A stretch of 64,000 bases of DNA from a virus (lineage: Duplodnaviria > Heunggongvirae > Uroviricota > Caudoviricetes), in IMG/VR virus record IMGVR_UViG_3300012909_000001, positions 33,689 to 97,688 of that record, one strand, 5' to 3'. The notes under the pieces are model-generated. The model was not told the origin of the DNA, did no database searches, and was given only the letters and a program-made list of their open reading frames with translations. The position numbers were made by a program, and so were the translations under genes. Of this stretch, positions 4,155-35,911 are shown in pieces (position 1 is the first letter of the stretch; each line of letters opens with the position of its first letter).

Positions 4155-5375
4155 TTAAGCTAAACCATCTGTTGCAACAGTTTTGTTGGTTGTTAACTCT
4201 ACTGTAGCAGGGTTAGTACTTGCAGCGGCAGCATCATCAGCTAAAGCATCAAATCCAGAAGGTGCTGTTAATCTATCTAAGATAGTAATAAGAGCATTCC
4301 TTGTAGTTGTATCTGCTGCCGGAATTGCTATAATAGTAGCTTCATTGTTCAGATACTCAAGCCAGGCACCAATTGAGAATTGGTCATAAGTAAGAGCAAT
4401 TTGGTCATACTTAGTTGCTGGGTTTATATAGTAAGTTCTTTCATCAGCTACTCCATTTAGAGTTGAAAGTCTGTAAGGACTGTCTCTCCAACCTTGAGCA
4501 ATATATTCTTTTTGCTTTAAATCATAACCATTTCCTTCTTCAAACACAGCTTGCTGTGTTGTAACAAGAGTACCATTACATTTGAATCCTTCAATTTTAG
4601 AAGGGATAATAACAGTTTCTCTTGGGTAGAAGTACTTAAGATTAACTGCACTGAAGTTGTTTACAGCCTGTGTTACAGTTGTAATTCTTAAGTCAGTGTA
4701 GTAATAATCTGCCGGGTCTGTTTGTGTAGCATTGTAAGCCATAATAGCTTCTAAATCTGCATCAGATACTACAGCTCCTTCAGCTAAATCTCCAGACAAT
4801 GCTGGAATAGTAGCATCAAGAATTGCTGTTCTTGCAATAGCTACAGCTGTAATAAGACCTGATGGGTCATTATTAATCTGTAGTTTCAAAATCTTAGTAA
4901 TCTCATTTGCATCTCCTGAAGGACATGTAGCTTCACAACCTTTGCAGCATGATGTAACCATACTGTAAGTTTTTGTAAATTGGTTGTAACCCTGAGTCCT
5001 ATAGATTTCCTGATTTCTTAATTCAAGTTTCAATCCGTATTCAGTTTCACAGTCTGCTGTATAGTCTCTCAACTCTACAATCATTGGTTGTCCTGGTGTA
5101 TGTGGTCTGTAGCTATAATGTACAATATTTCTTTTTTGTACAGCTGTACCTGTAGACTTCATTACATCAGTAGTAGTTCCTGTAGCACCTGGGTCTAAAC
5201 CTACAGCTACATAGAAATCTCTTACATTTGCAGTACCATCAATAGACAGGTTTGTATTTGCATCAAATACACCTATCTGACCAGGTAACAATGTACCTAC
5301 TCTGGCACCAGTTGCCTTTACAGCCTGATTACCACTTGTTGCTAATACTTGAAACACATCATTGTTTCTACTCAT
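4155..5375 (-). CDS. Putative virion structural protein, function unknown
   Basis: 406 aa ORF in the structural block between the capsid candidate and the tail fibres. It contains a CCKGCEATC cysteine cluster. Confidence 0.4.
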   Translation of the reverse strand: MSRNNDVFQVLATSGNQAVKATGARVGTLLPGQIGVFDANTNLSIDGTANVRDFYVAVGLDPGATGTTTDVMKSTGTAVQKRNIVHYSYRPHTPGQPMIVELRDYTADCETEYGLKLELRNQEIYRTQGYNQFTKTYSMVTSCCKGCEATCPSGDANEITKILKLQINNDPSGLITAVAIARTAILDATIPALSGDLAEGAVVSDADLEAIMAYNATQTDPADYYYTDLRITTVTQAVNNFSAVNLKYFYPRETVIIPSKIEGFKCNGTLVTTQQAVFEEGNGYDLKQKEYIAQGWRDSPYRLSTLNGVADERTYYINPATKYDQIALTYDQFSIGAWLEYLNNEATIIAIPAADTTTRNALITILDRLTAPSGFDALADDAAAASTNPATVELTTNKTVATDGLA

Positions 5376-27488: not shown

Positions 27489-28065
27489 CCAACAAAGGCA
27501 AAAGCCTGGGAAGAAAGTAGTATAATAAGTTTTGGTACTACATATTGCCTAAATTAAACAATTTTAGAAGGTAAAGCCTGTCAATGGTTAATTCCTTCAC
27601 ATTCCCCCTGTTTTGGTAATTATAGAAGGCGGACACATACCACGCGAGACTATTAGGTATGTGATGAAATTATCATTATTGTCGGTGTGAACAATGGGAC
27701 AGATTATAAACTGGTTAAAAATTTGTTTGGAAGAATTATCACACTCACCAGTTCAAAAACTCAAATAACTTCCCAAGTTGTTGAGGGCAGCTGTAGTTCT
27801 TATATTCTTGTTGGTTAAGGAAAGATTCAACAACTCACTCCTTACTAACTGAATATAAGTTTTAGCTGTAAAACACAATCTAAAACCCAATATTATGTTA
27901 ACAACAATAGTTTTCTTTGTTGCATTGTCATCCAGTATTGTACTGGTATTAGAAGCAATCAGTTATTATACAACATACAAGACTGAAAAGTTCATGTTGT
28001 ACAGAGTAGTACTATTTATTATAGTAGTCTGCTCATGGTCATATTTATATTATTTATCTCATTAA

Positions 28066-28322
28066 TGAGATGGATAATATTACTGTTATTACTCAGTAGT
28101 TGTTCTGTAAGAACTACTGAGTACTATGCTAAGCATGGATACAGTACAAAAGTAATTACAGGAGAAATAAAGTGGGAATGTAAGAATGCTATCTGGATTG
28201 ATACAATTAAAATTTGTAACTATAAAGGTAAGCAAAGAATTGGGGATACTGTTTCTATAACTTATATCTCACTAACTAAGTATAATCAAAATGAATTTAT
28301 ATGTACGAACCAGGAACAGTAG
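28066..28322 (+). CDS. Small lipoprotein; start trimmed from the track ORF 28035
   Basis: The signal peptide MRWIILLLLLSSC carries a lipobox L-S-S-C. Confidence 0.4.
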
Positions 28323-28594
28323 ATGTTAAAACCTATGAGCAAAGACAGAAAGAATGGCTACAAGAGAATAACTTTAAAGAAGGTGATTCTGTTAAAATAA
28401 TTAAAAAATTCTGTTATCAGGAACAAGGTTTTTTCCTCAGTTGGATAAATGATATGGATAAAAGTTTAGGAAAAACTTACAAGATACTATCTATAATGTC
28501 AGGATGTATTAAGTTAGAAAATAAATATGGTTATCCTTATTTCTCATTAGAGCCAGCACAAGACAAGAAGATATTACTTCTTGCAATTAAATAA
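28301..28594 (+). CDS. Hypothetical protein
   Basis: 97 aa ORF. Confidence 0.35.
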   Translation: MYEPGTVDVKTYEQRQKEWLQENNFKEGDSVKIIKKFCYQEQGFFLSWINDMDKSLGKTYKILSIMSGCIKLENKYGYPYFSLEPAQDKKILLLAIK

Positions 28595-28596
28595 GA

Positions 28597-28923
28597 ATGT
28601 CAGAGCAACATAAACCTGCTTTCAAGAAGAAGAAAAGTACCCTTGAAACAAGCCCGAAGCTGCTAAAAGCTTTAAAAAAGATTGAGAATGGAGTAGGAGG
28701 CACTGTCTCTTATGTCACTCTCACAGAGAGAATCAAATTTACAAAAGAAAACCCGGATGGTGAGGTGTATTACACCAAATCATTTTTGCATTCAAGCATC
28801 AATACTGAAGTATTCTTCAAGATGCATGAAGGTAAGAGAATGAAGAGGACTTATGCTGAGGTTATACAAGTGTTTCATGACACTTCTATTGACCAAGGAG
28901 CAAATTACTTCATTATTGGGTAA
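28597..28923 (+). CDS. Hypothetical protein
   Basis: 108 aa ORF. Confidence 0.35.
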   Translation: MSEQHKPAFKKKKSTLETSPKLLKALKKIENGVGGTVSYVTLTERIKFTKENPDGEVYYTKSFLHSSINTEVFFKMHEGKRMKRTYAEVIQVFHDTSIDQGANYFIIG

Positions 28924-28995
28924 TTCTTATGGGATTTGATTTCTTCTGATATAAGCCAAAAAATAATTGTCAAATCAAATTTGCACTAAAAAGAA

Positions 28996-30693
28996 ATGGG
29001 TAAATCAAATTCCAAACTCGCTGCTGCTATAGGAGCTAAAACTCCTAATCCAAAAGTAGTAGAAGCAAAAGCTATCCCGAAACCTGATACAAAGAATTTA
29101 TCAGGTAGTGAAGCTTACAAGCAAGACAAGTGGTTGAAACTACTTACTATGCTTAATGTACTGAAATTACAGCCTCAGTATTACAGGACAGAAAAACAGA
29201 CTTTAATAGATTTGCAAAATCTTATTAAAGAGTGTGCTGCTGAAGACCTGTACTTAACTTGTCAATGTATTGTGTATTCAAGATGTCTTGGAGAAGGTAT
29301 GAGAACTATTTCTCATGCAGCTTCAGTATTTATTGCACCTTATGTATCAGGACAGGATTATTCTAAAAGATTTTATGGTCTTTGGAATAAGAAAGAGAAA
29401 AGAGGTGGTGTAATCTTCAGACCTGATGATATGAGTGAAATCATAGCTGGGTTTGTAGCTCTCAATGGAGAGTACAGTACAACAACTGTAACAACAAGCT
29501 CTGCTAAGGGAACTTCAGTAGATATATCTACTGAAGTTACAGGTCCGAAATTAACTAATGCTATGAAGAAAGGTTTCAAAGAAGCTCTTGAGAATTTAGA
29601 TTCTTATTCTCTTTTGAAATACAAATCTACATTGGTTGATGTTATTAACTTAGTACATCCAAGAAGTAGTATCTCACAACAGATTGTTAAAGTCAATGGT
29701 GAAGATGTCTACACACTTGATGCAATCATGAGAGGACTTAATGTGTCAGCTGATACCTGGGAAGTAAACCAGGGAGAAGCAGGACAGATTGTGGCTAAAG
29801 CTGTTAAAGAAGGGAAACTGGATGAAACAGAAGCTAAAGAGGTCTTAACTCAGGCTAAGGCAGATAACTGGGAAGAATTGCTTGACAGCAACAGACTTGG
29901 TATCCTTGCAGGAATCAGAAATCTGAGAAATGTACTTCTGAATAAACCTAAGTCAACCACTATCAGCAAACTTTGTAATCTGGTATCTGATGGCAAACTT
30001 ATCAGAGAAGGTAAAATCATGCCATATCAATTAGATTTAGCTAATGAGATTATGATGTCTGAATTCAGTAACCCTGATTCCAGAGCTATATCTCAGGCAC
30101 TTGCTAAAGGATATGAAGAGGCTGTACCTAATCTGAAACTTATGCTTCCGGGTAGAAATATTATCATGCTTGACATGTCAATGTCTATGAGTTCTTATGA
30201 TATCAGACTTGCTAATGGTAAAACAGGACAAAGTTCAGCAGAGAAAGCATCATTACTTGCAGCTACAATAGCTAAGGCTACCAATGCTGATGTAATTGTG
30301 TTTGGTACTTCTGCTAATTATGTACAGTACAATCCTAATGCTGATGTATTTACAATTGCAAAACAATTGTGTAATGCACACATGGGAGGAACTAATCTGT
30401 CACTGGCATGGAGTTTAGCACAAAGGTCAGGTAATCAGTATGACAGAGTGTTTATTCTGTCTGATAACGAATGTAATAAGGCAAGCACTTATAGTTCTTA
30501 CATGTCATATGTAAAAGCTGTAGGTAGTCCTTATGTGTACTCAGTGGATTTAGCAGGTTACGGTACTAACTGTATTGCTGGAGATAAAGTGAGATATTAT
30601 TTTGGTTATGGATTTCAAATGTTTGATGATATTGCTTCATCAGAGTTTAATCCTAACTATCACCTTGAAAAAGTTAAACAAGTAATTATATAA
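28996..30693 (+). CDS. rsr: Ro60/TROVE-domain protein with a C-terminal vWA domain (Rsr-like)
   Basis: 565 aa. The vWA MIDAS motif is present as DMSMS (DxSxS) with a downstream GGT at the position of the MIDAS threonine. From memory of Ro60 sequences, segments QYYRTEKQ, LTCQC, GGTNLSLAWSLA and VFILSDNE align with Ro60 TYYIKEQK, ICSQC, GGTDCSLPMIWA and VFIVFTDNE. The size matches Ro60. Confidence 0.6.
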   Translation: MGKSNSKLAAAIGAKTPNPKVVEAKAIPKPDTKNLSGSEAYKQDKWLKLLTMLNVLKLQPQYYRTEKQTLIDLQNLIKECAAEDLYLTCQCIVYSRCLGEGMRTISHAASVFIAPYVSGQDYSKRFYGLWNKKEKRGGVIFRPDDMSEIIAGFVALNGEYSTTTVTTSSAKGTSVDISTEVTGPKLTNAMKKGFKEALENLDSYSLLKYKSTLVDVINLVHPRSSISQQIVKVNGEDVYTLDAIMRGLNVSADTWEVNQGEAGQIVAKAVKEGKLDETEAKEVLTQAKADNWEELLDSNRLGILAGIRNLRNVLLNKPKSTTISKLCNLVSDGKLIREGKIMPYQLDLANEIMMSEFSNPDSRAISQALAKGYEEAVPNLKLMLPGRNIIMLDMSMSMSSYDIRLANGKTGQSSAEKASLLAATIAKATNADVIVFGTSANYVQYNPNADVFTIAKQLCNAHMGGTNLSLAWSLAQRSGNQYDRVFILSDNECNKASTYSSYMSYVKAVGSPYVYSVDLAGYGTNCIAGDKVRYYFGYGFQMFDDIASSEFNPNYHLEKVKQVII

Positions 30694-30695
30694 CC

Positions 30696-30926
30696 ATGAA
30701 TCCATTCAGTACTAATATAGCATCATTACAACAAGAAAGTGATGATGCTATTGGTATCTTCAAGAAAACACTTAATAAGTTAACTGGAGTGAATACCAAA
30801 ATTCTTGCAGAGCAAGAGAAAAGAACCTCAAAGATTGAAGTATTAATCAATGAGAATGCAGCACTTGAGAAAGTTGCGCAAAGCAATAACAAGTATATTG
30901 CAAAAATCAACGAATTTTTAACCTAA
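30696..30926 (+). CDS. Hypothetical small coiled-coil protein
   Basis: 76 aa ORF. Confidence 0.35.
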   Translation: MNPFSTNIASLQQESDDAIGIFKKTLNKLTGVNTKILAEQEKRTSKIEVLINENAALEKVAQSNNKYIAKINEFLT

Positions 30927-30938
30927 AAACCCGAAGAT

Positions 30939-31301
30939 ATGTATTTAACACATAACGGAGAAGAGTTGGCATTCAAGTGGCATCATGACACTGAGAATAA
31001 TACAACTCATTGCGTAGTCACCAAGACAAGTGATAATTCAGAGGTAGCACATACTATGAGTAAAGTGCATCCAAATGACAATTATGACAGAGCTGAAGGA
31101 AGAAGAAGAACTCTTGGAAGAGTAATTCAGTCTCTTTATCCTACTTCAAAAGTAGATGAGGAGATTACACCAGAAGAGAAAGTTGCTGCTAAAGCAGGAA
31201 GACTTGAAATCTGGAGTCAATATGCTAACTGGAAGTCTGAAGAACCAAGAATGACTCTTGGAACTAAGAAAGAAAGAAAAGCAAAACTTAAAGTAGCATA
31301 A
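30939..31301 (+). CDS. Hypothetical protein
   Basis: 120 aa ORF. Confidence 0.4.
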   Translation: MYLTHNGEELAFKWHHDTENNTTHCVVTKTSDNSEVAHTMSKVHPNDNYDRAEGRRRTLGRVIQSLYPTSKVDEEITPEEKVAAKAGRLEIWSQYANWKSEEPRMTLGTKKERKAKLKVA

Positions 31302-31397
31302 CATGCCATTAAAAGTTGCAGAACTCGTAGCAATAGTTGCTGTTGTTGTATGGGTCTTCTGGATTACATACAAAGCAATTAAATCAGCATCTAAATA

Positions 31398-31616
31398 ATG
31401 GGAGCAATCTTATATTGGTTAGGTGCATTTATAGTGTTTATCATTCTTTGTAAACTATGGGCTAAAGAAATTCAGCGCAAAAGAGACAGACATTATGATT
31501 TGGTAGAGATATGGCAGTTTTGGCTGCTTATTATTACACCATTGACCTGGACATTTATGGTCCCAATCCTGCTTGTGATTAAAGCACTGAGTCTAATTTT
31601 CAATAAATTTAAATAA
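31398..31616 (+). CDS. Small membrane protein
   Basis: 72 aa with two hydrophobic helices. Confidence 0.35.
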   Translation: MGAILYWLGAFIVFIILCKLWAKEIQRKRDRHYDLVEIWQFWLLIITPLTWTFMVPILLVIKALSLIFNKFK

Positions 31617-31625
31617 ATAATCAAA

Positions 31626-32387
31626 ATGAAAAAATCTTTATTATTGTTTGCACTTAGTGCATTCGCATTGGTTTCCTGTGAGTCTGTCGGACCTAAGGAA
31701 AGAGGAGTTGAAGTGTCCTATGGAGGACAAACTAATATGGCACAGGTGTATTCACCTGGTATGGCAAATGGTTTTCACTGGATGTTTGATGATATGGTCA
31801 AGTATGACGTATCACAAGCAACTGTAGTGGAAAAATACGAGTTTAATGATGCCAAGAATATGTTAACAGGAGTGGAAATTTCTGTGGACTATTCTTTGGA
31901 CCCGGCTAAAGTGAATTTGCTACATGCAAATATCAATAACTATCATATAAAACTCGAAAAAACCATCAAAGCTGCCGCGAAGGAAGTTATTCCTCAATAT
32001 GCCGCATCTGACTTAAACCTTACTAAAAGGGGAGAAGCAGAGGCCAAAATTGCAGCCATTTTAGCCAAAGAGCTACCGGATTTCTATCTGTTATTTGATA
32101 GGGTCCAGCTTACTGATGTGGATATCCCACTGGCTATATCACAAGCAGCAGAGTTAACAGCAAAACAAGCAGAGCTGAACAAGTTGGCAGATTCTAAGAA
32201 AACAGAAGCTGAGAACAACTTCCATGCCGCTGAATGGGATGCCAAGACTAAAAATGTATTGTCACAACCTGCCATGTTAAAGCTTAAAGAGCTTGAAATT
32301 GACATGGAATATGCCAGAAGAGGTGTATCTAAGTATGGTCAGAACAATGTATTTGGTGCTAATACCGGGATTTTACTGAATAAGTAA
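31626..32387 (+). CDS. Lipoprotein with an SPFH/band-7-like domain
   Basis: The lipoprotein signal MKKSLLLFALSAFALVSC has a lipobox. The motif KRGEAEAKIAAIL and a following coiled coil are typical of SPFH (HflK/C, stomatin) domains. Confidence 0.45.
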   Translation: MKKSLLLFALSAFALVSCESVGPKERGVEVSYGGQTNMAQVYSPGMANGFHWMFDDMVKYDVSQATVVEKYEFNDAKNMLTGVEISVDYSLDPAKVNLLHANINNYHIKLEKTIKAAAKEVIPQYAASDLNLTKRGEAEAKIAAILAKELPDFYLLFDRVQLTDVDIPLAISQAAELTAKQAELNKLADSKKTEAENNFHAAEWDAKTKNVLSQPAMLKLKELEIDMEYARRGVSKYGQNNVFGANTGILLNK

Positions 32388-32406
32388 GATTAAATAAAAA
32401 ACTTTA

Positions 32407-32448
32407 AAATATTTAACCTATCTCTTGGTAGGTTAAATATTTTTCTTT
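32407..32448 (+). terminator. Strong rho-independent terminator: 14 bp perfect stem AAATATTTAACCTA / TAGGTTAAATATTT with a T-run
   Basis: Seen directly, 20 nt after the stop of 31626..32387. A TACATTTG -7-like box follows at about 32446. Confidence 0.6.
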
Positions 32449-32972
32449 ACATTTGCAAAGTATTACAAAATATAAGGGCCTGACAGGCTTTGATTGCATA
32501 TATTAGATAATAATAATTCAGCCAGAGAGATAACTGTAAACTAAGGTGAATTTTATAAATGGAAACATAGATAACAACCCACAAGTAAAAGCTAATATGA
32601 CTATAGTACATAACATCTTAAATGGTGATATGGCAGTAGGTCAATCAAATGACTTAATTCTTTACGGAAAAGATGATTTATTAGTAGCTGCCTAAGCTTA
32701 AATAGGAAGGTTTTCATAACCATGAAGTTTGTAAAGACTTTAGAATCTCAAGATTTCTTACTTAGATTAAAGTAAGTGGTGGAGTTGCCAAATTGAATTG
32801 GCTCCAATTTCTAACGTAAAGAATTCAAACAAACGTGAAGCTGTATAAAATTATATTGTTGAGGTAGGTAAGACCTGACTTCGATGTCAGCAGGTCCACA
32901 AACTCTTTTATTGGTGTTTTAGAGTGGTTAGAAGTTTTTGGCAATTTTTCTTTGATAAAATTGCTACCATAG

Positions 32973-33042
32973 CTGCTGTAGTGTAATTGGCAACATAATA
33001 CCCTGTCACGGTATAGTTTGGAGTTCGAATCTCCCAGTAGCT
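32973..33042 (+). tRNA. tRNA-Asp (anticodon GTC)
   Basis: Acceptor GCTGCTG/CAGTAGC with one G-U pair; anticodon arm ATACC-CTGTCAC-GGTAT; T-arm GGAG-TTCGAAT-CTCC. The D-arm is atypical. Confidence 0.55.
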
Positions 33043-33071
33043 GCAAACATAAAGGGTAGTAATAATTAGGT

Positions 33072-33144
33072 TACTTCTTAGCTCACTTGGTAGAGCAAAA
33101 ATTTTAGGTATTTTAGGTAGTGGGTTCAACTCCCACAGAGGCAC
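33072..33144 (+). tRNA. tRNA with anticodon TAG, which would read the Leu codon CUA; the body is class-I-like with a short variable loop, so the identity is uncertain
   Basis: Canonical D-arm TAGCTCACTTGGTAGAGC; anticodon arm AAAAT-TTTAGGT-ATTTT; T-arm GTGGG-TTCAACT-CCCAC. The acceptor stem has one A-C mismatch. Confidence 0.45.
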
Positions 33145-33186
33145 TTAGGTGTTAACACCTAATTAACTTTCTCCCTTTATTTTTAT

Positions 33187-33259
33187 GCCTGATTAACTCA
33201 GTTGGTAGAGTAATTCCCTTGTAAGGATTAAGTCATAGGTTCGAACCCTATATTAGGCT
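33187..33259 (+). tRNA. tRNA-Thr (anticodon TGT)
   Basis: Full cloverleaf traced base by base: acceptor GCCTGAT/ATTAGGC, D-arm ACTC-AGTTGGTA-GAGT, anticodon arm ATTCC-CTTGTAA-GGATT, T-arm ATAGG-TTCGAAC-CCTAT. Confidence 0.85.
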
Positions 33260-33322
33260 CAGCATAAGTTTCATTGACATATTGGTTTAAATCAGAGTTA
33301 AAGTTCTCATAAAAACTTAAAT

Positions 33323-33395
33323 AGTACTGTAGCTTAATGGATAAAGCCTCAGATTTCTAATCTGATTATTGTAGGTTCAAGTCCTATCAGTACTA
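33323..33395 (+). tRNA. tRNA-Arg (anticodon TCT)
   Basis: Acceptor AGTACTG/CAGTACT perfect; D-arm GCTT...AAGC; anticodon arm TCAGA-TTTCTAA-TCTGA; T-arm GTAGG-TTCAAGT-CCTAT. Confidence 0.85.
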
Positions 33396-33401
33396 CAATT
33401 T

Positions 33402-33474
33402 GGACAGATAGCACAATGGTTAATGCTGTGAGCTGTTAACTCATAAGGTCTAGGTTCGAGTCCTAGTCTGTCCG
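33402..33474 (+). tRNA. tRNA-Asn (anticodon GTT)
   Basis: Acceptor GGACAGA/TCTGTCC; anticodon arm GTGAG-CTGTTAA-CTCAT; T-arm CTAGG-TTCGAGT-CCTAG. Confidence 0.75.
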
Positions 33475-33485
33475 CAAATAGCAAT

Positions 33486-33507
33486 AGTAACGTAAGAGTT
33501 ACTTCGG
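33486..33507 (+). repeat. Inter-tRNA hairpin family, copy 1: AGTAAC-GTAAGA-GTTACT followed by TCGG
   Basis: Shares the motif AGTAA...TTACTTCG(G/T) with the copies at 33933, 34027 and 34515. It lies 12 nt after a tRNA 3' end. Confidence 0.5.
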
Positions 33508-33563
33508 AACAAATTTTTAGCTTGTAATTCAACAAATACTCTTACAATTTTCTTTGCTTTTTT

Positions 33564-33638
33564 GGTTTATTAGCACAGTCTGGTCAGTGCAACTCCCTCA
33601 TAAGGAGAAGGTCAGTGGTTCAAATCCATTATAAACCA
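33564..33638 (+). tRNA. tRNA-Met (anticodon CAT), first copy
   Basis: Acceptor GGTTTAT/ATAAACC; D-arm GCAC-AGTCTGGTCA-GTGC; anticodon loop CTCATAA; T-arm AGTGG-TTCAAAT-CCATT. Confidence 0.75.
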
Positions 33639-33711
33639 CAAATAGTATAACACTATCAACATTAAAACATATTATAGCTGAATGTCTGTAACGTTTTATA
33701 CTATTTCTTTT

Positions 33712-33784
33712 GCTTCCTTAACTCAGTGAGAAGAGTGTCTCCCTTACATGGAGAAAGTCCCAAGTTCGAATCTTGGAGGAAGTA
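33712..33784 (+). tRNA. tRNA-Val (anticodon TAC)
   Basis: Acceptor GCTTCCT/AGGAAGT; D-arm ACTC-AGTGAGAA-GAGT; anticodon arm TCTCC-CTTACAT-GGAGA; T-arm CCAAG-TTCGAAT-CTTGG. Confidence 0.85.
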
Positions 33785-33789
33785 CTAAT

Positions 33790-33860
33790 GCAGATTTCAT
33801 CTAATGGTAGGATAGTGCTCTCCAAAAGCATTCATGGAAGTTCGAACCTTTCAATCTGCG
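33790..33860 (+). tRNA. tRNA-Trp (anticodon CCA)
   Basis: Acceptor GCAGATT/AATCTGC perfect; anticodon arm GTGCT-CTCCAAA-AGCAT; T-arm GGAAG-TTCGAAC-CTTTC. Confidence 0.7.
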
Positions 33861-33892
33861 CAAAATGTTATAGTTCATTAAAAACTAAATAC

Positions 33893-34016
33893 GGGGAAGT
33901 TTAAAAAAACTTGACTTATATGCTTATTCTCCAGTAATGGTAGTTACAGTATAAGTTACTTCGGAAAACATTTTTATCATAAGAAAATCATGTTGGTTCA
34001 AATCCAACCTTCCCCA
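33893..34016 (+). ncRNA. tRNA-like RNA, 124 nt: 7 bp acceptor-type terminal stem GGGGAAG/CTTCCCC plus a canonical T-arm GTTGG-TTCAAAT-CCAAC, but with a roughly 50 nt non-canonical core. It could be an intron-containing tRNA or a Y-RNA/YrlA-like tRNA mimic
   Basis: Terminal stem, discriminator A and T-arm are seen directly. No canonical D-arm or anticodon arm was found. Hairpin copy 2 (33933-33964) lies inside it. Confidence 0.4.
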
Positions 34017-34026
34017 CAAAGACAGT

Positions 34027-34048
34027 AGTAAAGTATAACTTACTTCGT
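34027..34048 (+). repeat. Inter-tRNA hairpin family, copy 3: AGTAA-AGTATAAC-TTACT followed by TCGT, then an orphan T-arm-like hairpin ATTGG-TTCGAAT-CCAAT at 34055-34071
   Basis: Seen directly. Confidence 0.5.
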
Positions 34049-34208
34049 AATTTATTGGTTCGAATCCAATCACAGCCTTTGGCTATGTAGACAAACTGGT
34101 TAAGTCACTTTTCTTTAAAAAAAGCACAAACACTTTTCAGTTATACTAATTTCTCTGTCATTTTTATCAAGGTTTAAGAGGGCTGTACCTATAAACAGCC
34201 CATTATAA

Positions 34209-34282
34209 GGACCAGTAACTCAGTCTGGTAGAGTGTTCCCCTGAAGAGGGAATGGTCATAGGTTCAAATCCTATTTGGTCCA
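34209..34282 (+). tRNA. tRNA-Phe (anticodon GAA)
   Basis: Acceptor GGACCAG/TTGGTCC; D-arm ACTC-AGTCTGGTA-GAGT; anticodon arm TTCCC-CTGAAGA-GGGAA; T-arm ATAGG-TTCAAAT-CCTAT. Confidence 0.85.
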
Positions 34283-34342
34283 CTATTGTAGATTGTTACT
34301 AATTCATAGGACTGGAAAGTCACGTAAGCATAGAATTAGAAT

Positions 34343-34424
34343 GGAATATGAAAGTCATCTTGGATATGGCAGGCAGACTGTAAATCTGCTACGAAAGTGA
34401 GTGGTTCGAGTCCATCATATTCCA
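34343..34424 (+). tRNA. tRNA-Tyr (anticodon GTA), type II with a long variable arm
   Basis: Acceptor GGAATAT/ATATTCC perfect; anticodon arm GCAGA-CTGTAAA-TCTGC; roughly 11 nt variable arm; 82 nt in total. Confidence 0.7.
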
Positions 34425-34430
34425 CACATC

Positions 34431-34504
34431 TGTGGGTTGGTAGTAAATGGTTAACTCGCTGGGCTCATATCCCAGAGCTGAGGGTTCAAGTCCCTTGCCC
34501 GCAA
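34431..34504 (+). tRNA. tRNA with anticodon CAT, second copy; could be initiator Met, elongator Met or Ile2 (lysidine)
   Basis: Acceptor TGTGGGT/GCCCGCA with two G-U pairs; anticodon arm CTGGG-CTCATAT-CCCAG; T-arm GAGGG-TTCAAGT-CCCTT. Confidence 0.65.
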
Positions 34505-34514
34505 CTAAAAGAGT

Positions 34515-34536
34515 AGTAAGAGTTAAGTTACTTCGT
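34515..34536 (+). repeat. Inter-tRNA hairpin family, copy 4: AGTAA-GAGTTAAG-TTACT followed by TCGT
   Basis: Seen directly, 11 nt after the preceding tRNA. Confidence 0.5.
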
Positions 34537-34586
34537 TTACCATAAAATTAACTAAAAAATACTTAATTCATTTTCTCTCTTTAAAT

Positions 34587-34659
34587 CTGGTATTATATCA
34601 ATTGGTAGATTACGTGCTTTGGGAGCACGAGGCTGTAGGTTCAAGTCCTGCATACCAGA
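34587..34659 (+). tRNA. tRNA-Pro (anticodon TGG)
   Basis: Acceptor CTGGTAT/ATACCAG perfect; anticodon arm CGTGC-TTTGGGA-GCACG; T-arm GTAGG-TTCAAGT-CCTGC. Confidence 0.8.
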
Positions 34660-34790
34660 CAACACAGTTGGTCACACACTACAGTTCGTGATAGGGTTCC
34701 ATATCCTTATATACTGGTAAATTTTGTATTATTTTTGAATAAAGAAATTTTACAGGCTAACAAGTAGTATACTGCTTTTAGTAACAGATT

Positions 34791-34841
34791 GAGATTATTC
34801 TATTATCTTGTGTTAAGACTTAGATAAATCTCAATTTTTTT
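34791..34841 (+). terminator. Extended hairpin (GAGATT..TTATCT loop AGATAA..AATCTC) followed by A2T7; a terminator-like structure inside the tRNA array
   Basis: Seen directly. Confidence 0.45.
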
Positions 34842-34843
34842 AT

Positions 34844-34919
34844 TCCCTCGTTGCTTAGTCTGGCTCAAAGCACCACACTTTTAATGTGGGTATCAATGGT
34901 TCGAATCCATTCGAGGGAA
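34844..34919 (+). tRNA. tRNA-Lys (anticodon TTT)
   Basis: Acceptor TCCCTCG/CGAGGGA perfect; D-arm GCTT-AGTCTGGCTCA-AAGC; anticodon arm CCACA-CTTTTAA-TGTGG; T-arm AATGG-TTCGAAT-CCATT. Confidence 0.9.
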
Positions 34920-34984
34920 CAAGTGATGTAATTTTGTATGTTTTATTACATTGTGACCATTAGGTACACTTACAAACATATAAT

Positions 34985-35067
34985 GCAAGAGTGGCTTAAC
35001 AACGAATTGGTATAGTGGTAATACTTAGGATATTACAGCTTTGGGAGTTCGAGTCTCCCCTCTTGTA
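34985..35067 (+). tRNA. Atypical tRNA, 83 nt, with anticodon TAG and an unusually long region between the acceptor and the anticodon arm; identity uncertain
   Basis: Acceptor GCAAGAG/CTCTTGT; anticodon arm TAATA-CTTAGGA-TATTA perfect; T-arm GGGAG-TTCGAGT-CTCCC perfect. A 27 nt D-region could not be folded canonically. Confidence 0.4.
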
Positions 35068-35072
35068 CAAAT

Positions 35073-35146
35073 GGCTCGGTGGTGCAACTGGTAGACACAT
35101 AGAGCTTAAGCCTCTAAAAGTATGGGTTCGACTCCCTTTCGAGCTA
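35073..35146 (+). tRNA. tRNA with anticodon TAA (Leu, UUA) and a class-I-like short variable loop
   Basis: Acceptor GGCTCGG/TCGAGCT with terminal G-U pairs; anticodon arm TAGAG-CTTAAGC-CTCTA perfect; T-arm ATGGG-TTCGACT-CCCTT; discriminator A. Confidence 0.55.
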
Positions 35147-35161
35147 CTAAAATTATTTATT

Positions 35162-35227
35162 ATGGCTATATTTATTGGAATTGTTTTAGTAATCTGTATT
35201 GTTTGCATACTCTCAGGTGCAGAGTAA
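35162..35227 (+). CDS. Tiny hydrophobic peptide ORF, MAIFIGIVLVICIVCILSGAE, between tRNAs
   Basis: It is preceded by an AAATTATTTATTATG leader similar to those at 35321 and 35640. Confidence 0.3.
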   Translation: MAIFIGIVLVICIVCILSGAE

Positions 35228-35232
35228 ATTAT

Positions 35233-35318
35233 GGAAGGTATCCGGCAGGATGAGGAGCCTGTCTTGAAAACAGGTAGTGGCTAATTACCATTGATGAGTT
35301 CGAGTCTCTCACCTTCTT
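35233..35318 (+). tRNA. tRNA-Ser (anticodon TGA), type II
   Basis: Acceptor GGAAGGT/ACCTTCT; anticodon arm CCTGT-CTTGAAA-ACAGG perfect; roughly 20 nt variable arm. The T-stem is imperfect. Confidence 0.65.
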
Positions 35319-35332
35319 CTAAATTATTATTA

Positions 35333-35416
35333 TGATAAGATTATTAGTATTCTTTGTAGTTTTTACTGTTATTCTTATACTTGGTCACAAGTATTTGAAA
35401 TGGGATGGTGAATAAA
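35333..35416 (+). CDS. Tiny hydrophobic peptide ORF, MIRLLVFFVVFTVILILGHKYLKWDGE
   Basis: Preceded by AAATTATTATTATG. Confidence 0.3.
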
Positions 35417-35546
35417 AATTAGTCCTGTACCCTTGAATCCTATTAATTGCTAAGTGATGAACTTAGGATTATAACATGGAGTAGACCCGGATAAGTTCAG
35501 CAGGATAGGTATTGTTATAAAAGGGTTTAAAGACTTTACCATTTAC

Positions 35547-35631
35547 AGAAAGGTGCCAGAATGGTATTGGAGCAGATTGCTAATCTGTCGGAGCCTCAAA
35601 ACTTCTCAGGGTTCGAGTCCCTGTCTTTCTA
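35547..35631 (+). tRNA. tRNA-Ser (anticodon GCT), type II
   Basis: Acceptor AGAAAGG/TCTTTCT; D-arm CCA-GAATGGTAT-TGG; anticodon arm GCAGA-TTGCTAA-TCTGT; 18 nt variable arm; T-arm CAGGG-TTCGAGT-CCCTG. Confidence 0.7.
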
Positions 35632-35651
35632 CTTAGTTTTAAATTATTATT

Positions 35652-35828
35652 ATGAGCAGAACTATCAGAAAAGATGTTAATGACAAGCCTTACACAGAAG
35701 GTAGAACATCTAAAATAAGATATAGATGTCATTGTATTTATTGTGCAGGTCATGACAAGAATCAACTTGTTGAAAAAATAAGAAAAAAAGAATTAAATAA
35801 ACAATTAAAAGAATTGTCATGTGGATAG
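35652..35828 (+). CDS. Small Cys-containing protein ORF (58 aa), MSRTIRKDVNDKPYTEGRTSKIRYRCHCIYCAGHDKNQ..., between tRNAs
   Basis: Preceded by AAATTATTATTATG; it has a CHCIYC motif. A 28 aa hydrophobic ORF follows at 35819..35905. Confidence 0.3.
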   Translation: MSRTIRKDVNDKPYTEGRTSKIRYRCHCIYCAGHDKNQLVEKIRKKELNKQLKELSCG

Positions 35829-35911
35829 TATTTGTAATATTGCTAATTGGAGCAATTCTCTTCTGGGAACCAGGAGATGATAATGATTATCCACATTTTG
35901 GATAGTTAAAT

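What the first reader, a model, noticed from the sequence alone, without database searches (positions are those of the whole stretch)
33893..34016. 124 nt tRNA-like RNA with an acceptor stem and a T-arm but a non-canonical core; candidate YrlA-like Y RNA or intron-bearing tRNA
A perfect 7 bp terminal stem (GGGGAAG/CTTCCCC, discriminator A) and a canonical T-arm (GTTGG-TTCAAAT-CCAAC) bracket about 95 nt. That stretch has no recognisable D-arm or anticodon arm. It does contain one copy of the AGTAA...TTACTTCGG hairpin family. Bacterial Y RNAs (YrlA) are tRNA mimics of about this size and are bound by Ro60/Rsr. This phage encodes an Rsr-like protein 3 kb upstream.
Basis: partly seen in the sequence, partly recalled or inferred. 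Interest (0 to 1): 0.7.

Follow-up and report, generated by a model that had tools for sequence, protein, structure and literature searches.

The report
tRNA-shaped Y-like RNA beside phage Ro60

Summary
Window 33893-34016 has a perfect 7-bp acceptor stem, a canonical T-arm, discriminator A and a non-canonical core. It is neither chance nor a decayed tRNA. I found 33 distinct homologs in viral and metagenome contigs, and their acceptor, T and cap stems covary (99.6% of cells paired; 12 of 15 pairs with double changes). The core is a long irregular hairpin closed by a 3-bp stem and a GNRA loop. It carries two conserved motifs, UAGYAA...UUACUUCG and AAUUUCU. The same stem occurs in "open" form in about 40 copies, closing around circularly permuted tRNA-like domains (YrlA layout; one lies directly downstream at 34021-34159), around tRNA-like cargo, or around nothing. 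A divergent Ro60/Rsr is encoded 3.2 kb upstream. In RNA-only scans, 18 of 46 sites had Rsr in the held DNA, all on the same strand, at a median of 1.1 kb. The "anticodon" is not conserved, and no tool calls a tRNA, an intron or a tmRNA. Best reading: a Ro60-partner Y-like RNA with an unpermuted, open-acceptor topology. It fails the tests for YrlA membership. Rsr binding is inferred, not shown.

The parts
33893..33899 (+). Acceptor stem, 5' strand (GGGGAAG). Inferred RNase P cleavage site immediately 5' of G33893.
   Evidence: Pairs 7/7 with 34009-34015. 33 of 33 homologs have a perfect 7-bp stem, in 11 sequence versions; 6 of the 7 pairs show double changes.
33900..33911 (+). A-rich single-stranded linker (TTTAAAAAAACT). 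It corresponds to the AAAAACA tract that precedes the 3'-type strand in open stem modules.
   Evidence: Alignments; table.
33912..33921 (+). Inner helix, 3'-type strand (TGACTTATAT).
   Evidence: Pairs with 33949-33958 in the MFE. In the family, own-strand duplexes average -6.55 kcal/mol against -2.86 for swapped partners.
33922..33930 (+). Conserved internal-loop strand (GCTTATTCT). It is a degenerate version of the family motif A-N-UUUCU.
33931..33940 (+). Cap: 3-bp stem CCA/TGG closed by the GNRA tetraloop GTAA.
   Evidence: All 3 pairs covary and 100% of cells pair. Loops were GNRA in 9 of 9 members found without requiring GNRA.
33941..33947 (+). Conserved internal-loop strand (TAGTTAC), the counterpart of the family motif UAGYAA.
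   Evidence: L121 swaps C-G for G-C between the UUUCU and UAG motifs.
33949..33958 (+). Inner helix, 5'-type strand (GTATAAGTTA).
33956..33964 (+). Conserved TTACTTCGG motif. It is the apical end of the stem module and a possible D-loop mimic (GG).
   Evidence: The 8-mer occurs 5 times in the window against 0.47 expected. It is invariant in 37 open modules. The Rfam tRNA model aligns it as a D-arm.
33970..33988 (+). Anticodon-arm-like hairpin: 6 bp, 7-nt loop AUCAUAA, with 'CAU' at 33978-33980.
   Evidence: MFE and the Rfam tRNA partial alignment. Homologs keep a hairpin here but with different loops, such as CUUGAAA, CUCAUAA and CUGCAAC.
33992..34008 (+). T-arm GTTGG-TTCAAAT-CCAAC.
   Evidence: The 3 outer stem pairs covary in the family.
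34009..34017 (+). Acceptor 3' strand CTTCCCC, discriminator A34016 and the invariant next base C34017.
   Evidence: C follows the discriminator in 33 of 33 members and CCA is encoded in 11 of 33.
34021..34159 (+). Neighbouring paralog M4. An open stem module (GACAG-TAGTAA-AGTATAAC-TTACTTCG ... GTTATACT-AATTTCTC-TGTC) encloses a T-arm (34054-34070), a closed acceptor (34071-34087), a D-arm (34090-34106) and a hairpin (34108-34124). The tRNA-like part is in YrlA order.
   Evidence: Rfam YrlA 21.2 bits; MFE; covariation of the stem.
33052..33177 (+). Open stem module M1, enclosing a 73-nt tRNA-like cargo that is called tRNA-Leu(UAG), 33072-33144.
   Evidence: The cargo at the matching position in relatives has a different anticodon in nearly every genome.
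33480..33558 (+). Open stem module M2 with no tRNA-like cargo.
34509..34581 (+). Open stem module M5 with no tRNA-like cargo.
28996..30693 (+). Divergent Ro60/Rsr (TROVE + vWA), 565 aa. It is the presumed protein partner.
   Evidence: Pfam vWA_Ro60 4e-8 and TROVE 5.5e-5. PDB matches: phiLo Ro60 9KOP/9L5Y at 5e-7 and Xenopus Ro60 1YVP at 3e-4.

Best explanation
The element is a stable non-coding RNA of about 124 nt (plus CCA) made from the phage tRNA-array transcript. It is a tRNA-shaped Y-like RNA.

One half is a tRNA-like acceptor/T-arm minihelix with an anticodon-arm-like hairpin. Because of that half, the host tRNA enzymes should cut it out and finish it: RNase P at G33893, 3' trimming after A34016, then CCA addition.

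The other half sits where the D-arm side of a tRNA would be. It is a long irregular hairpin with a conserved internal loop (UAGYAA opposite AAUUUCU) and a UUACUUCG motif, capped by a GNRA loop. I infer that this stem is the docking site for the phage's Ro60/Rsr ring, as the stem of a Y RNA is. The tRNA-like half would then be the effector or targeting module, as in YrlA. The resulting RNP would act on the phage's large tRNA pool, in processing, quality control or repair, or would tether Rsr to a tRNA-binding enzyme or exonuclease.

In topology it is an unpermuted YrlA: open acceptor, closed Ro-type stem. Shown here: the structure, its conservation and covariation, the shared stem module, and the linkage to rsr. 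Inferred: expression, the processing sites, Rsr binding and the downstream function.
For: Structure:
- MFE and z-score.
- RNAalifold on an uncurated alignment recovers the acceptor stem, T-arm, inner helix and cap.
- Across 31 distinct rows, 99.6% of cells pair, 12 of 15 pairs have double changes, and the covariation score is 0.694 against 0.232 in shuffles (0/500) and at most 0.15 with slid partners.
- The acceptor stem is perfect in 33 of 33 members, in 11 sequence versions; the swap control gives 1 of 192.
- The inner helix averages -6.55 kcal/mol with its own strand against -2.86 with swapped partners.

Shared stem module:
- In 37 distinct open copies, 87.2% of cells pair against 68.1% in shuffles. 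The covariation score is 0.527 against 0.180 (0/500). All 6 outer-stem pairs show double changes.
- Unconstrained folds of M1, M2, M4 and M5 recover the stem.
- The open modules enclose permuted tRNA-like domains whose best non-tRNA Rfam match is YrlA: 21.2, 27.2 and 30.7 bits.

Ro60 link:
- The ORF at 28996-30693 is a TROVE/vWA protein that matches solved Ro60 structures.
- Modules flank rsr within about 2.5 kb in all 8 Rsr-anchored relatives.
- Of 46 capped-RNA sites found from the RNA pattern alone, 18 have Rsr in the held DNA. All 18 are on the same strand, at a median of 1.1 kb. Only 3 Rsr-negative sites have at least 3 kb held on both sides.
- Of 18 neighbouring ORFs, only Rsr co-occurs with the modules: 13 of 28 loci against 2 or fewer.

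tRNA-like ends:
- C follows the discriminator in 33 of 33 members. CCA is encoded in 11 of 33, against 35 of 367 ordinary tRNAs in the same loci.

Precedent:
- YrlA genes lie within 4 kb of rsr on the same strand, and M. smegmatis YrlA is opened by RNase P and receives CCA (PMC4201824).
Against: - There is no direct evidence of expression or of Rsr binding.
- The stem lacks the GNCGAAN0-1G motif that marks the proposed Rsr site in YrlA. No such motif occurs on the + strand of 28-39 kb.
- The curated YrlA model does not hit the candidate.
- The window also holds a more canonical YrlA-like RNA at 37546-37666 (42.3 bits). That RNA could be the main or only Rsr partner, which would leave the motif-bearing stems to some other factor.
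- Three well-covered sites (L040, L142, L143) have no Rsr within 3-7 kb.
- Some open modules enclose sequences that look like ordinary tRNAs, which would also fit a role in precursor processing.
Confidence: 0.6

Rival explanations
1. The conserved stem is a processing or maturation signal for the tRNA-array transcript. A nuclease or chaperone unrelated to Rsr would recognise it, as RNase III recognises leader-trailer stems in rRNA operons. On this view the candidate is a by-product or a structural variant of that signal.
For: Open modules start 5-15 nt after tRNA 3' ends and can enclose tRNA-like genes such as M1 and L002 12222-12340. The conserved UUACUUC ends exactly at the tRNA 5' end in those cases.
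Against: Only a handful of the 24-35 tRNAs per genome carry the module, and those cluster at rsr. The internal loop is conserved in sequence and asymmetric, which RNase III-type recognition does not need. In the candidate the stem is internal and capped, so it is not a leader-trailer duplex. No other neighbouring ORF co-occurs with the modules.
Confidence: 0.13
2. It is a working tRNA mimic that acts without Rsr. It might be a CCA-tailed, possibly chargeable decoy or sponge for host anticodon nucleases, tRNA-modifying enzymes or synthetases, or a regulator of translation. Its position near rsr would then reflect only the shared tRNA/RNA-repair neighbourhood.
For: The acceptor stem is an open 7 bp, G1-C72 and C74 are invariant, and encoded CCA is enriched. 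The T-loop is canonical. Phage tRNA arrays are thought to counter tRNA-targeting defences (PMC7824862).
Against: The discriminator varies (A, G or U) and so does the anticodon-like loop, which argues against a single synthetase or nuclease target. The most conserved part is the capped stem, which a plain tRNA decoy would not need. The same-strand, roughly 1-kb linkage to rsr holds across Rsr proteins only 31-36% identical to the window's.
Confidence: 0.15
3. It is a precursor of a real tRNA, and the inserted stem is removed as an intron, or by permuted-tRNA-type cut-and-ligate processing.
For: The Rfam tRNA model aligns the 3' two-thirds with a CAU anticodon loop. A subgroup of homologs has a D-arm-like hairpin after the stem. 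Permuted tRNA genes are processed this way in some algae and archaea (bioRxiv 10.1101/312249).
Against: ARAGORN in intron mode finds nothing. The insert is about 55 nt, which is too short for a group I intron, and no intron family matches. Removing the stem from the candidate leaves no D-stem. The anticodon-like loops are not conserved and often are not 7 nt. No bacterial splicing endonuclease for such sites is known.
Confidence: 0.04
4. It is a decayed tRNA pseudogene, or a chance juxtaposition of a stem and a T-arm-like sequence in an AT-rich spacer.
For: Neither ARAGORN nor Rfam at gathering threshold calls it.
Against: There are 33 distinct homologs, with compensatory changes in three stems and invariant motifs, from phages whose Rsr proteins are as little as 31% identical to the window's.
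Confidence: 0.01

Closest known systems
YrlA (Rfam RF02553): bacterial and phage Y RNAs with a tRNA-like domain, partners of Ro60/Rsr
   Same: It is about 120 nt and is encoded near rsr on the same strand. It combines a long irregular stem with a tRNA-like module that has a canonical T-arm. Several paralogs occur per genome. Sister RNAs in the same phages (M4; L007 9352-9475; L002 11840-11959) have the YrlA order of T-arm, closed acceptor and D-arm, and hit the YrlA model weakly.
   Different: The topology is inverted. The acceptor stem is open and carries the RNA ends, and the Ro-type stem is closed by a GNRA loop. There is no canonical D-arm and no GNCGAAN0-1G motif. The stem motifs are different (UAGYAA / AAUUUCU / UUACUUCG). 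The curated model gives no hit.
[quoted passage not shown]
   Same: Its tRNA-like domain has an opened 7-bp acceptor stem and a CCA end while it stays attached to the Ro-binding stem.
   Different: In M. smegmatis the opened form is two RNA pieces held together by base pairing. Here a single chain has the open acceptor built in, because the far end of the stem is capped.
tmRNA tRNA-like domain
   Same: It has an acceptor stem and T-arm, no proper D-stem, and a long helix leaving the core. It has an open 3' end with C74 and, in a third of members, encoded CCA.
   Different: It is 124 nt rather than about 350. It has no G3:U70, no tag reading frame and no pseudoknots. ARAGORN's tmRNA mode finds nothing.
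Circularly permuted tRNA genes of red algae and archaea
   Same: The family contains both permuted and unpermuted arrangements of the same acceptor and T-arm sequences (L128, L130 and L136 against the candidate).
   Different: No BHB motif or splicing machinery is evident. The anticodon-like loops are not conserved, so a mature decoding tRNA is unlikely.
Yrl1/Yrl2 of Thermus phage phiLo, bound by phage Ro60 (PMC12135203)
   Same: They are phage-encoded Y-like RNAs near a divergent phage Ro60. That Ro60 is the closest solved relative of the window's protein (9KOP, E = 5e-7).
   Different: The phiLo RNAs are described as terminal-stem Y RNAs with a CGAA bulge. No tRNA-shaped open-acceptor form is described.

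Membership tests
YrlA (Rfam RF02553) | Score at or above the curated gathering threshold (69 bits) of the covariance model | tested here: not met
   There is no YrlA hit on 33893-34016 even at E <= 10. Neighbour M4 scores 21.2 bits and the element at 37546-37666 scores 42.3 bits.
YrlA (Rfam RF02553) | Encoded within about 4 kb of the Ro60/Rsr gene on the same strand (PMC4201824) | tested here: met
   It lies 3.2 kb downstream of rsr on the + strand. Family-wide, 18 of 18 sites are on the same strand, at a median of 1.1 kb.
YrlA (Rfam RF02553) | tRNA-like domain in permuted order: RNA 5'/3' ends in the Ro-binding stem, then T-arm, loop-closed acceptor stem and D-arm | tested here: not met
   The acceptor is open and terminal, the stem is capped, and the D-arm is at best degenerate.
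YrlA (Rfam RF02553) | GNCGAAN0-1G motif in the 5' strand of the stem (the proposed Rsr site) | tested here: not met
   A regex search of the + strand of window 28001-39000 found no occurrence. The stem motifs here are UAGYAA, AAUUUCU and UUACUUCG.
Y RNA (functional definition) | Bound by Ro60/Rsr in vivo | not testable with these tools
   Only genomic linkage is available.
Y RNA (functional definition) | 80-130 nt RNA with a long stem that carries a conserved bulged or looped protein-binding helix | tested here: met
   It is 124 nt. The two-helix stem has an invariant internal loop and covarying flanks.
Canonical tRNA (RF00005) | Full cloverleaf recognised by ARAGORN, or by Rfam at 29 bits or more | tested here: not met
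   ARAGORN makes no call in any mode. Rfam gives 25.1 bits over model positions 9-63 only.
Canonical tRNA (RF00005) | 7-bp acceptor stem, T-arm with a UUCRAnY loop, and a discriminator followed by C74 | tested here: met
Canonical tRNA (RF00005) | Anticodon conserved among orthologs, in a 7-nt loop | tested here: not met
   The loops vary among homologs (AUCAUAA, CUCAUAA, CUUGAAA, CUGCAAC, and 4-6-nt loops).
Intron-containing tRNA | A tRNA is recovered once an intron is allowed; a group I intron or a canonical 37/38 position | tested here: not met
   ARAGORN -i and -i0,200 make no call at this site. No intron family hits. The insert is about 55 nt and lies 5' of the anticodon arm.
tmRNA | tmRNA detector hit, G3:U70 and a tag reading frame | tested here: not met
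   ARAGORN -m finds 0 genes. Position 3-70 is G-C.

The most novel reading that the evidence does not exclude
These phages graft one modular Ro60-docking stem onto tRNA scaffolds at several different positions: the acceptor end, the D-arm side, position 26 and the variable region. The candidate is the version that keeps a free, CCA-bearing acceptor end. It would then be a Ro60 RNP that can enter true tRNA pathways, such as RNase P, the CCA enzyme, and perhaps a synthetase, EF-Tu or the ribosome, or that acts as bait for tRNA-targeting defence nucleases. That would tie Ro60 directly to translation or to the tRNA arms race. It would also be a living intermediate between tRNAs and Y RNAs.
Probability: 0.15. 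Interest if true: 0.85.

Novelty: new variant of a known kind. Interest (0 to 1): 0.66.

Why it matters
Y RNAs and Ro60 are conserved from bacteria to humans, but what the tRNA-like half of bacterial Y RNAs does is still unknown. This family adds three things:

- **A new stem motif.** It is strongly supported and lacks the classical GNCGAA signature. If it does bind Ro60, it widens what a Ro60 site can look like.
- **An inverted topology.** These tRNA mimics keep an open acceptor end, often with encoded CCA. That makes "does a Y RNA enter tRNA pathways?" directly testable.
- **A natural series of arrangements.** The same phage group contains permuted, unpermuted, cargo-bearing and cargo-less forms. 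This bears on the proposal that YrlA evolved from tRNA precursors.

It also places a Ro60 system inside the tRNA arrays of crAss-like and related environmental phages. I found no paper in the held library describing that.

Tried and rejected
- **tRNA and tmRNA detectors.** ARAGORN in default, intron, low-threshold, tmRNA and mitochondrial modes makes no call at the site.
- **Rfam.** At gathering threshold only ordinary tRNAs are found. In sensitive mode the candidate gets a sub-threshold partial tRNA match and no YrlA match.
- **Phage GenBank records.** Megablast of the array found nothing.
- **Local AGTAA/TTACT hairpin.** I rejected it because it has no covariation and is broken in 12 of 37 copies.
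- **Capped copies in the eight Rsr-anchored relatives.** The first regex was too strict and did not even match the candidate's own degenerate motif. Blastn and later patterns found the real homologs.
- **5'-motif scan of the viral collection.** It returned mostly chance single hits. Only loci with complete modules were used.
- **MAFFT alignment of the capped family.** It misplaced parts of the window row. I therefore used fixed-field alignments (A3, A4) and an alignment-free duplex test instead of a covariance model.
- **Two script and register errors.** An off-by-one and a T-stem register error were found and corrected.
- **Reviews not held.** PMC10870794 and PMC6047535 could not be read.
- **Promoter and terminator scans.** They gave no more hits than shuffles and were not informative for a Bacteroidota-type phage.
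- **Permuted-tRNA splicing and tmRNA-like readings.** I considered both and rejected them; see the rival explanations and the membership tests.

Full report
**Setting.** The window comes from a crAss-like phage: the major capsid protein matches Crass_capsid at 1.5e-142. It carries an array of 24 tRNA genes, all on the + strand, at 32971-38289. The array covers all 20 amino acids and includes a CUA suppressor. The finding lies in a 348-nt gap between tRNA-Trp (33790-33861) and tRNA-Phe (34209-34283).

**Checking the observation.** The sequence is as described. GGGGAAG (33893-33899) pairs with CTTCCCC (34009-34015), the discriminator is A34016, and the T-arm is GTTGG-TTCAAAT-CCAAC (33992-34008). 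The 565-aa ORF at 28996-30693, 3.2 kb upstream on the same strand, is a divergent Ro60/Rsr. It matches Pfam vWA_Ro60 (4e-8) and TROVE (5.5e-5, just under the cut-off). It also matches solved Ro60 structures from Thermus phage phiLo (9KOP/9L5Y, 5e-7) and Xenopus (1YVP, 3e-4). ARAGORN in default, intron, tmRNA and relaxed modes does not call the element. Rfam at gathering threshold does not call it either. In sensitive mode the Rfam tRNA model aligns 33954-34008 to model positions 9-63 at 25.1 bits, below the cut-off of 29. That alignment reads a degenerate D-arm, an anticodon arm with loop AUCAUAA, and the T-arm. The whole 124 nt folds at -28.4 kcal/mol, z = -3.2, into five elements: the acceptor stem, a 10-bp helix, a small capped stem, a 6-bp hairpin with a 7-nt loop, and the T-arm.

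**The "hairpin family" is one strand of a long-range stem.**
- TTACTTCG occurs 5 times in the window against 0.47 expected.
- I anchored on the Rsr protein and fetched eight related loci (Rsr 55-60% identical), which come from contigs of up to 207 kb. rsr sits inside tRNA arrays there too.
- Listing every TTACTTCG with its context and searching for partners showed a two-part unit. The 5' strand is [outer stem]-UAGYAA-N8-UUACUUC(G). After a variable cargo, the 3' strand is (A)ACA-N8'-A(A/C)UUUCU-[outer stem].
- On 37 distinct copies, cut in a fixed register with no pairing filter on the outer stem, 87.2% of cells pair against 68.1% in shuffles. The covariation score is 0.527 against 0.180 (0/500), and 0.11-0.17 with slid partners. 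All 6 outer-stem pairs and 7 of 8 inner pairs show double changes. Four pairs inside the conserved loop never vary.
- Unconstrained folds of the four open modules in the window recover the two-helix stem.

**What the stem encloses.** From the sequences the cargo is one of the following:
- a tRNA-like domain in the order T-arm, loop-closed acceptor, D-arm, hairpin (window M4, 34021-34159; also in L002, L003, L004, L006 and L007);
- the order hairpin, T-arm, closed acceptor, D-arm (for example L007 9335-9480);
- an unpermuted tRNA-like gene (window M1 around 33072-33144);
- nothing (window M2 and M5).

The best non-tRNA Rfam match of the permuted forms is always YrlA, but far below its gathering score of 69: 21.2 bits for M4, 27.2 for L002 11840-11959 and 30.7 for L007 9352-9475. 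The tRNA-like cargo just downstream of rsr in the relatives has a different "anticodon" in nearly every genome (taa, tta, ttt, atc, gca). These cargos are therefore not ordinary decoders.

**The candidate is the same stem with the topology inverted.** In the candidate the 3'-type strand comes first (33912-33930) and the 5'-type strand second (33941-33964). They are joined by a 3-bp stem and a GNRA loop (CCA-GUAA-UGG, 33931-33940). The whole hairpin sits between the 5' acceptor strand and the anticodon-like hairpin. Blastn found homologs, including one in the syntenic Trp-Phe gap of L121, whose Rsr is 71% identical to the window's. A scan for the T-arm plus the 3' acceptor strand gave 9 distinct full-length members, all with GNRA caps. 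RNAalifold on the raw alignment recovered the acceptor stem, T-arm, inner helix and cap, with 6 compensated pairs. One of those is a C-G to G-C swap between the UUUCU and UAG motifs.

To test the acceptor stem I then scanned with the capped-stem motif and the T-loop only. This added viral and metagenome copies from lakes, sediments and activated sludge.
- Of 33 distinct members, all have a perfect 7-bp acceptor stem, in 11 different sequence versions. In a swap control only 1 of 192 foreign 3' strands finds a perfect partner upstream.
- On the fixed-field alignment A4, 99.6% of cells pair and 12 of 15 pairs show double changes. The covariation score is 0.694 against 0.232 in shuffles (0/500), and at most 0.15 with slid partners.
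- The inner helix is supported by own-versus-swapped duplex energies: -6.55 against -2.86 kcal/mol, with 22 distinct strands.
- The hairpin before the T-arm is kept as a structure, but its loop varies (CUUGAAA, CUCAUAA, AUCAUAA, CUGCAAC, and 4-6-nt loops). The discriminator is A, G or U.
- One subgroup has a clear D-arm-like hairpin (GCUAAAUGGUUAGC) right after GUUACWUCG. The candidate's GUUA-CUUCGGA-AAAC may therefore be a degenerate D-arm.
- The base after the discriminator is C in 33 of 33. CCA is encoded in 11 of 33, against 35 of 367 ordinary tRNAs in the same loci.
- L128, L130 and L136 carry the same T-arm and acceptor sequence in the permuted, closed form: T-arm-CTTCCCC-loop-GGGGAAG-UA-D-arm.

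**Link to Ro60.**
- In the eight Rsr-anchored relatives the modules lie within about 2.5 kb of rsr on the same strand.
- In loci found only through the RNA motif, 13 of 28 loci with a complete module contain Rsr in a median of 8.6 kb of held DNA.
- For the capped family, 18 of 46 distinct sites have Rsr in the held DNA. All 18 are on the same strand, at a median of 1.1 kb. Only 3 of the Rsr-negative sites have at least 3 kb held on both sides.
- Of 18 ORFs around the array, only Rsr co-occurs with the RNAs.
- This meets the operational criterion that Chen et al. used for YrlA, namely within 4 kb and on the same strand (PMC4201824).

**Comparison with what is known.** YrlA RNAs are defined by four things: a GNCGAAN0-1G motif in the terminal stem; a tRNA-like domain with T-arm, closed acceptor and D-arm; proximity to rsr; and Rsr binding. 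The candidate meets only the proximity criterion. It has no GNCGAA motif, its acceptor is open, and the curated model does not hit it. I therefore do not file it as YrlA.

It does look like a Y RNA in design: a protein-type stem combined with a tRNA mimic. It corresponds to what M. smegmatis YrlA becomes after RNase P opens its 7-bp acceptor and CCA is added, but as a single chain. I found no paper in the held library on Ro60 or Y RNAs in crAss-like phages, or on this motif. [quoted passage not shown]

**Caveats.**
- Expression, RNA ends and Rsr binding are all inferred.
- The window also contains a much better YrlA-like RNA at 37546-37666 (42.3 bits). It has the canonical permuted layout and a 7-bp closed acceptor with an 18-nt loop, but it carries neither GNCGAA nor the TAGYAA/TTACTTCG motifs. 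It has no homolog in the held loci. It may be the main Rsr partner, or one of several, as in Salmonella (YrlA/YrlB) and Deinococcus (Yrn1/Yrn2).
- The shuffle controls do not correct for relatedness among sequences. The slid-partner and swap controls do, and they agree with the shuffles.

**Verdict.** The Y-RNA interpretation is partly supported and the intron-bearing-tRNA interpretation is not. The element is a member of a new, well-supported family of phage tRNA-shaped RNAs. That family shares a conserved stem module with YrlA-like neighbours and is linked to a phage Ro60 gene.

Noticed in passing
window 37546-37666 (+): This is the best YrlA-like element in the window: Rfam YrlA 42.3 bits (gathering score 69), E = 2e-8 in the local search. 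It has the canonical permuted layout: terminal stem CAAUAG/CUAUUG, a T-arm, a 7-bp closed acceptor with an 18-nt loop, UA, a D-arm and a 4-bp stem. It lacks both GNCGAA and the TAGYAA/TTACTTCG motifs. It lies between a DUF7873 ORF and the suppressor tRNA.
   Followed up: partly
window 37721-37797 (+): A tRNA with anticodon CUA (amber suppressor; ARAGORN labels it 'Pyl') sits in a crAss-like phage that already encodes tRNAs for all 20 amino acids. This suggests TAG recoding late in infection. I did not check for in-frame TAG codons in the ORFs.
   Followed up: no
window 34985-35067 (+): An extra tRNA-like element. Rfam tRNA scores 32.5 bits (above the cut-off of 29) in the sensitive scan. ARAGORN calls it only in relaxed modes, inconsistently, as Leu(tag) with a 6-nt intron or as Pro(tgg).
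   Followed up: partly
window 33052-33177 and relatives (L002 11695, L003 11805, L004 10895, L005 5497, L007 11888): The tRNA-like cargo enclosed by the stem module directly downstream of rsr has a different anticodon in almost every relative (taa, tta, ttt, atc, gca; tag in the window). It is therefore probably a tRNA mimic and not a decoder, although tRNA finders call it a tRNA.
   Followed up: partly
L128 (- strand, around the T-arm ending at reverse-strand position 4948): A tandem arrangement in which the 3' acceptor strand CTTCCCC could pair either with an upstream GGGGGAG, giving a tRNA-like body with a 66-nt insert, or with a downstream GGGGAAG followed by a D-arm. This is a dimeric tRNA-like layout of the kind proposed as the evolutionary origin of YrlA.
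   Followed up: no
L129 (- strand, 117-nt element ending at the T-arm/acceptor match): It has the same GGGGAAG/CTTCCCC acceptor and T-arm as the candidate, but the interior is replaced by three unrelated hairpins without the stem motifs. The acceptor/T-arm body and the inserted stem therefore seem to be separable modules.
   Followed up: no
window 36622-37446 (+): A DUF7873 ORF (Pfam 7.7e-37) sits inside the tRNA array. As listed, its start overlaps the 3' end of tRNA-Ala (36585-36658), so the true start is probably further downstream. It does not co-occur with the RNA modules in other loci (1 locus).
   Followed up: partly
window 31626-32387 (+): An SPFH/Band 7 family protein (8.8e-16) is encoded between rsr and the tRNA array. 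It has no homolog in the other loci held.
   Followed up: partly
window 34181-34202 (+): A perfect 7-bp GC-rich hairpin (GGGCTGT-ACCTATAA-ACAGCCC) lies just upstream of tRNA-Phe and downstream of M4, with no T-run after it. Its role is unknown.
   Followed up: no
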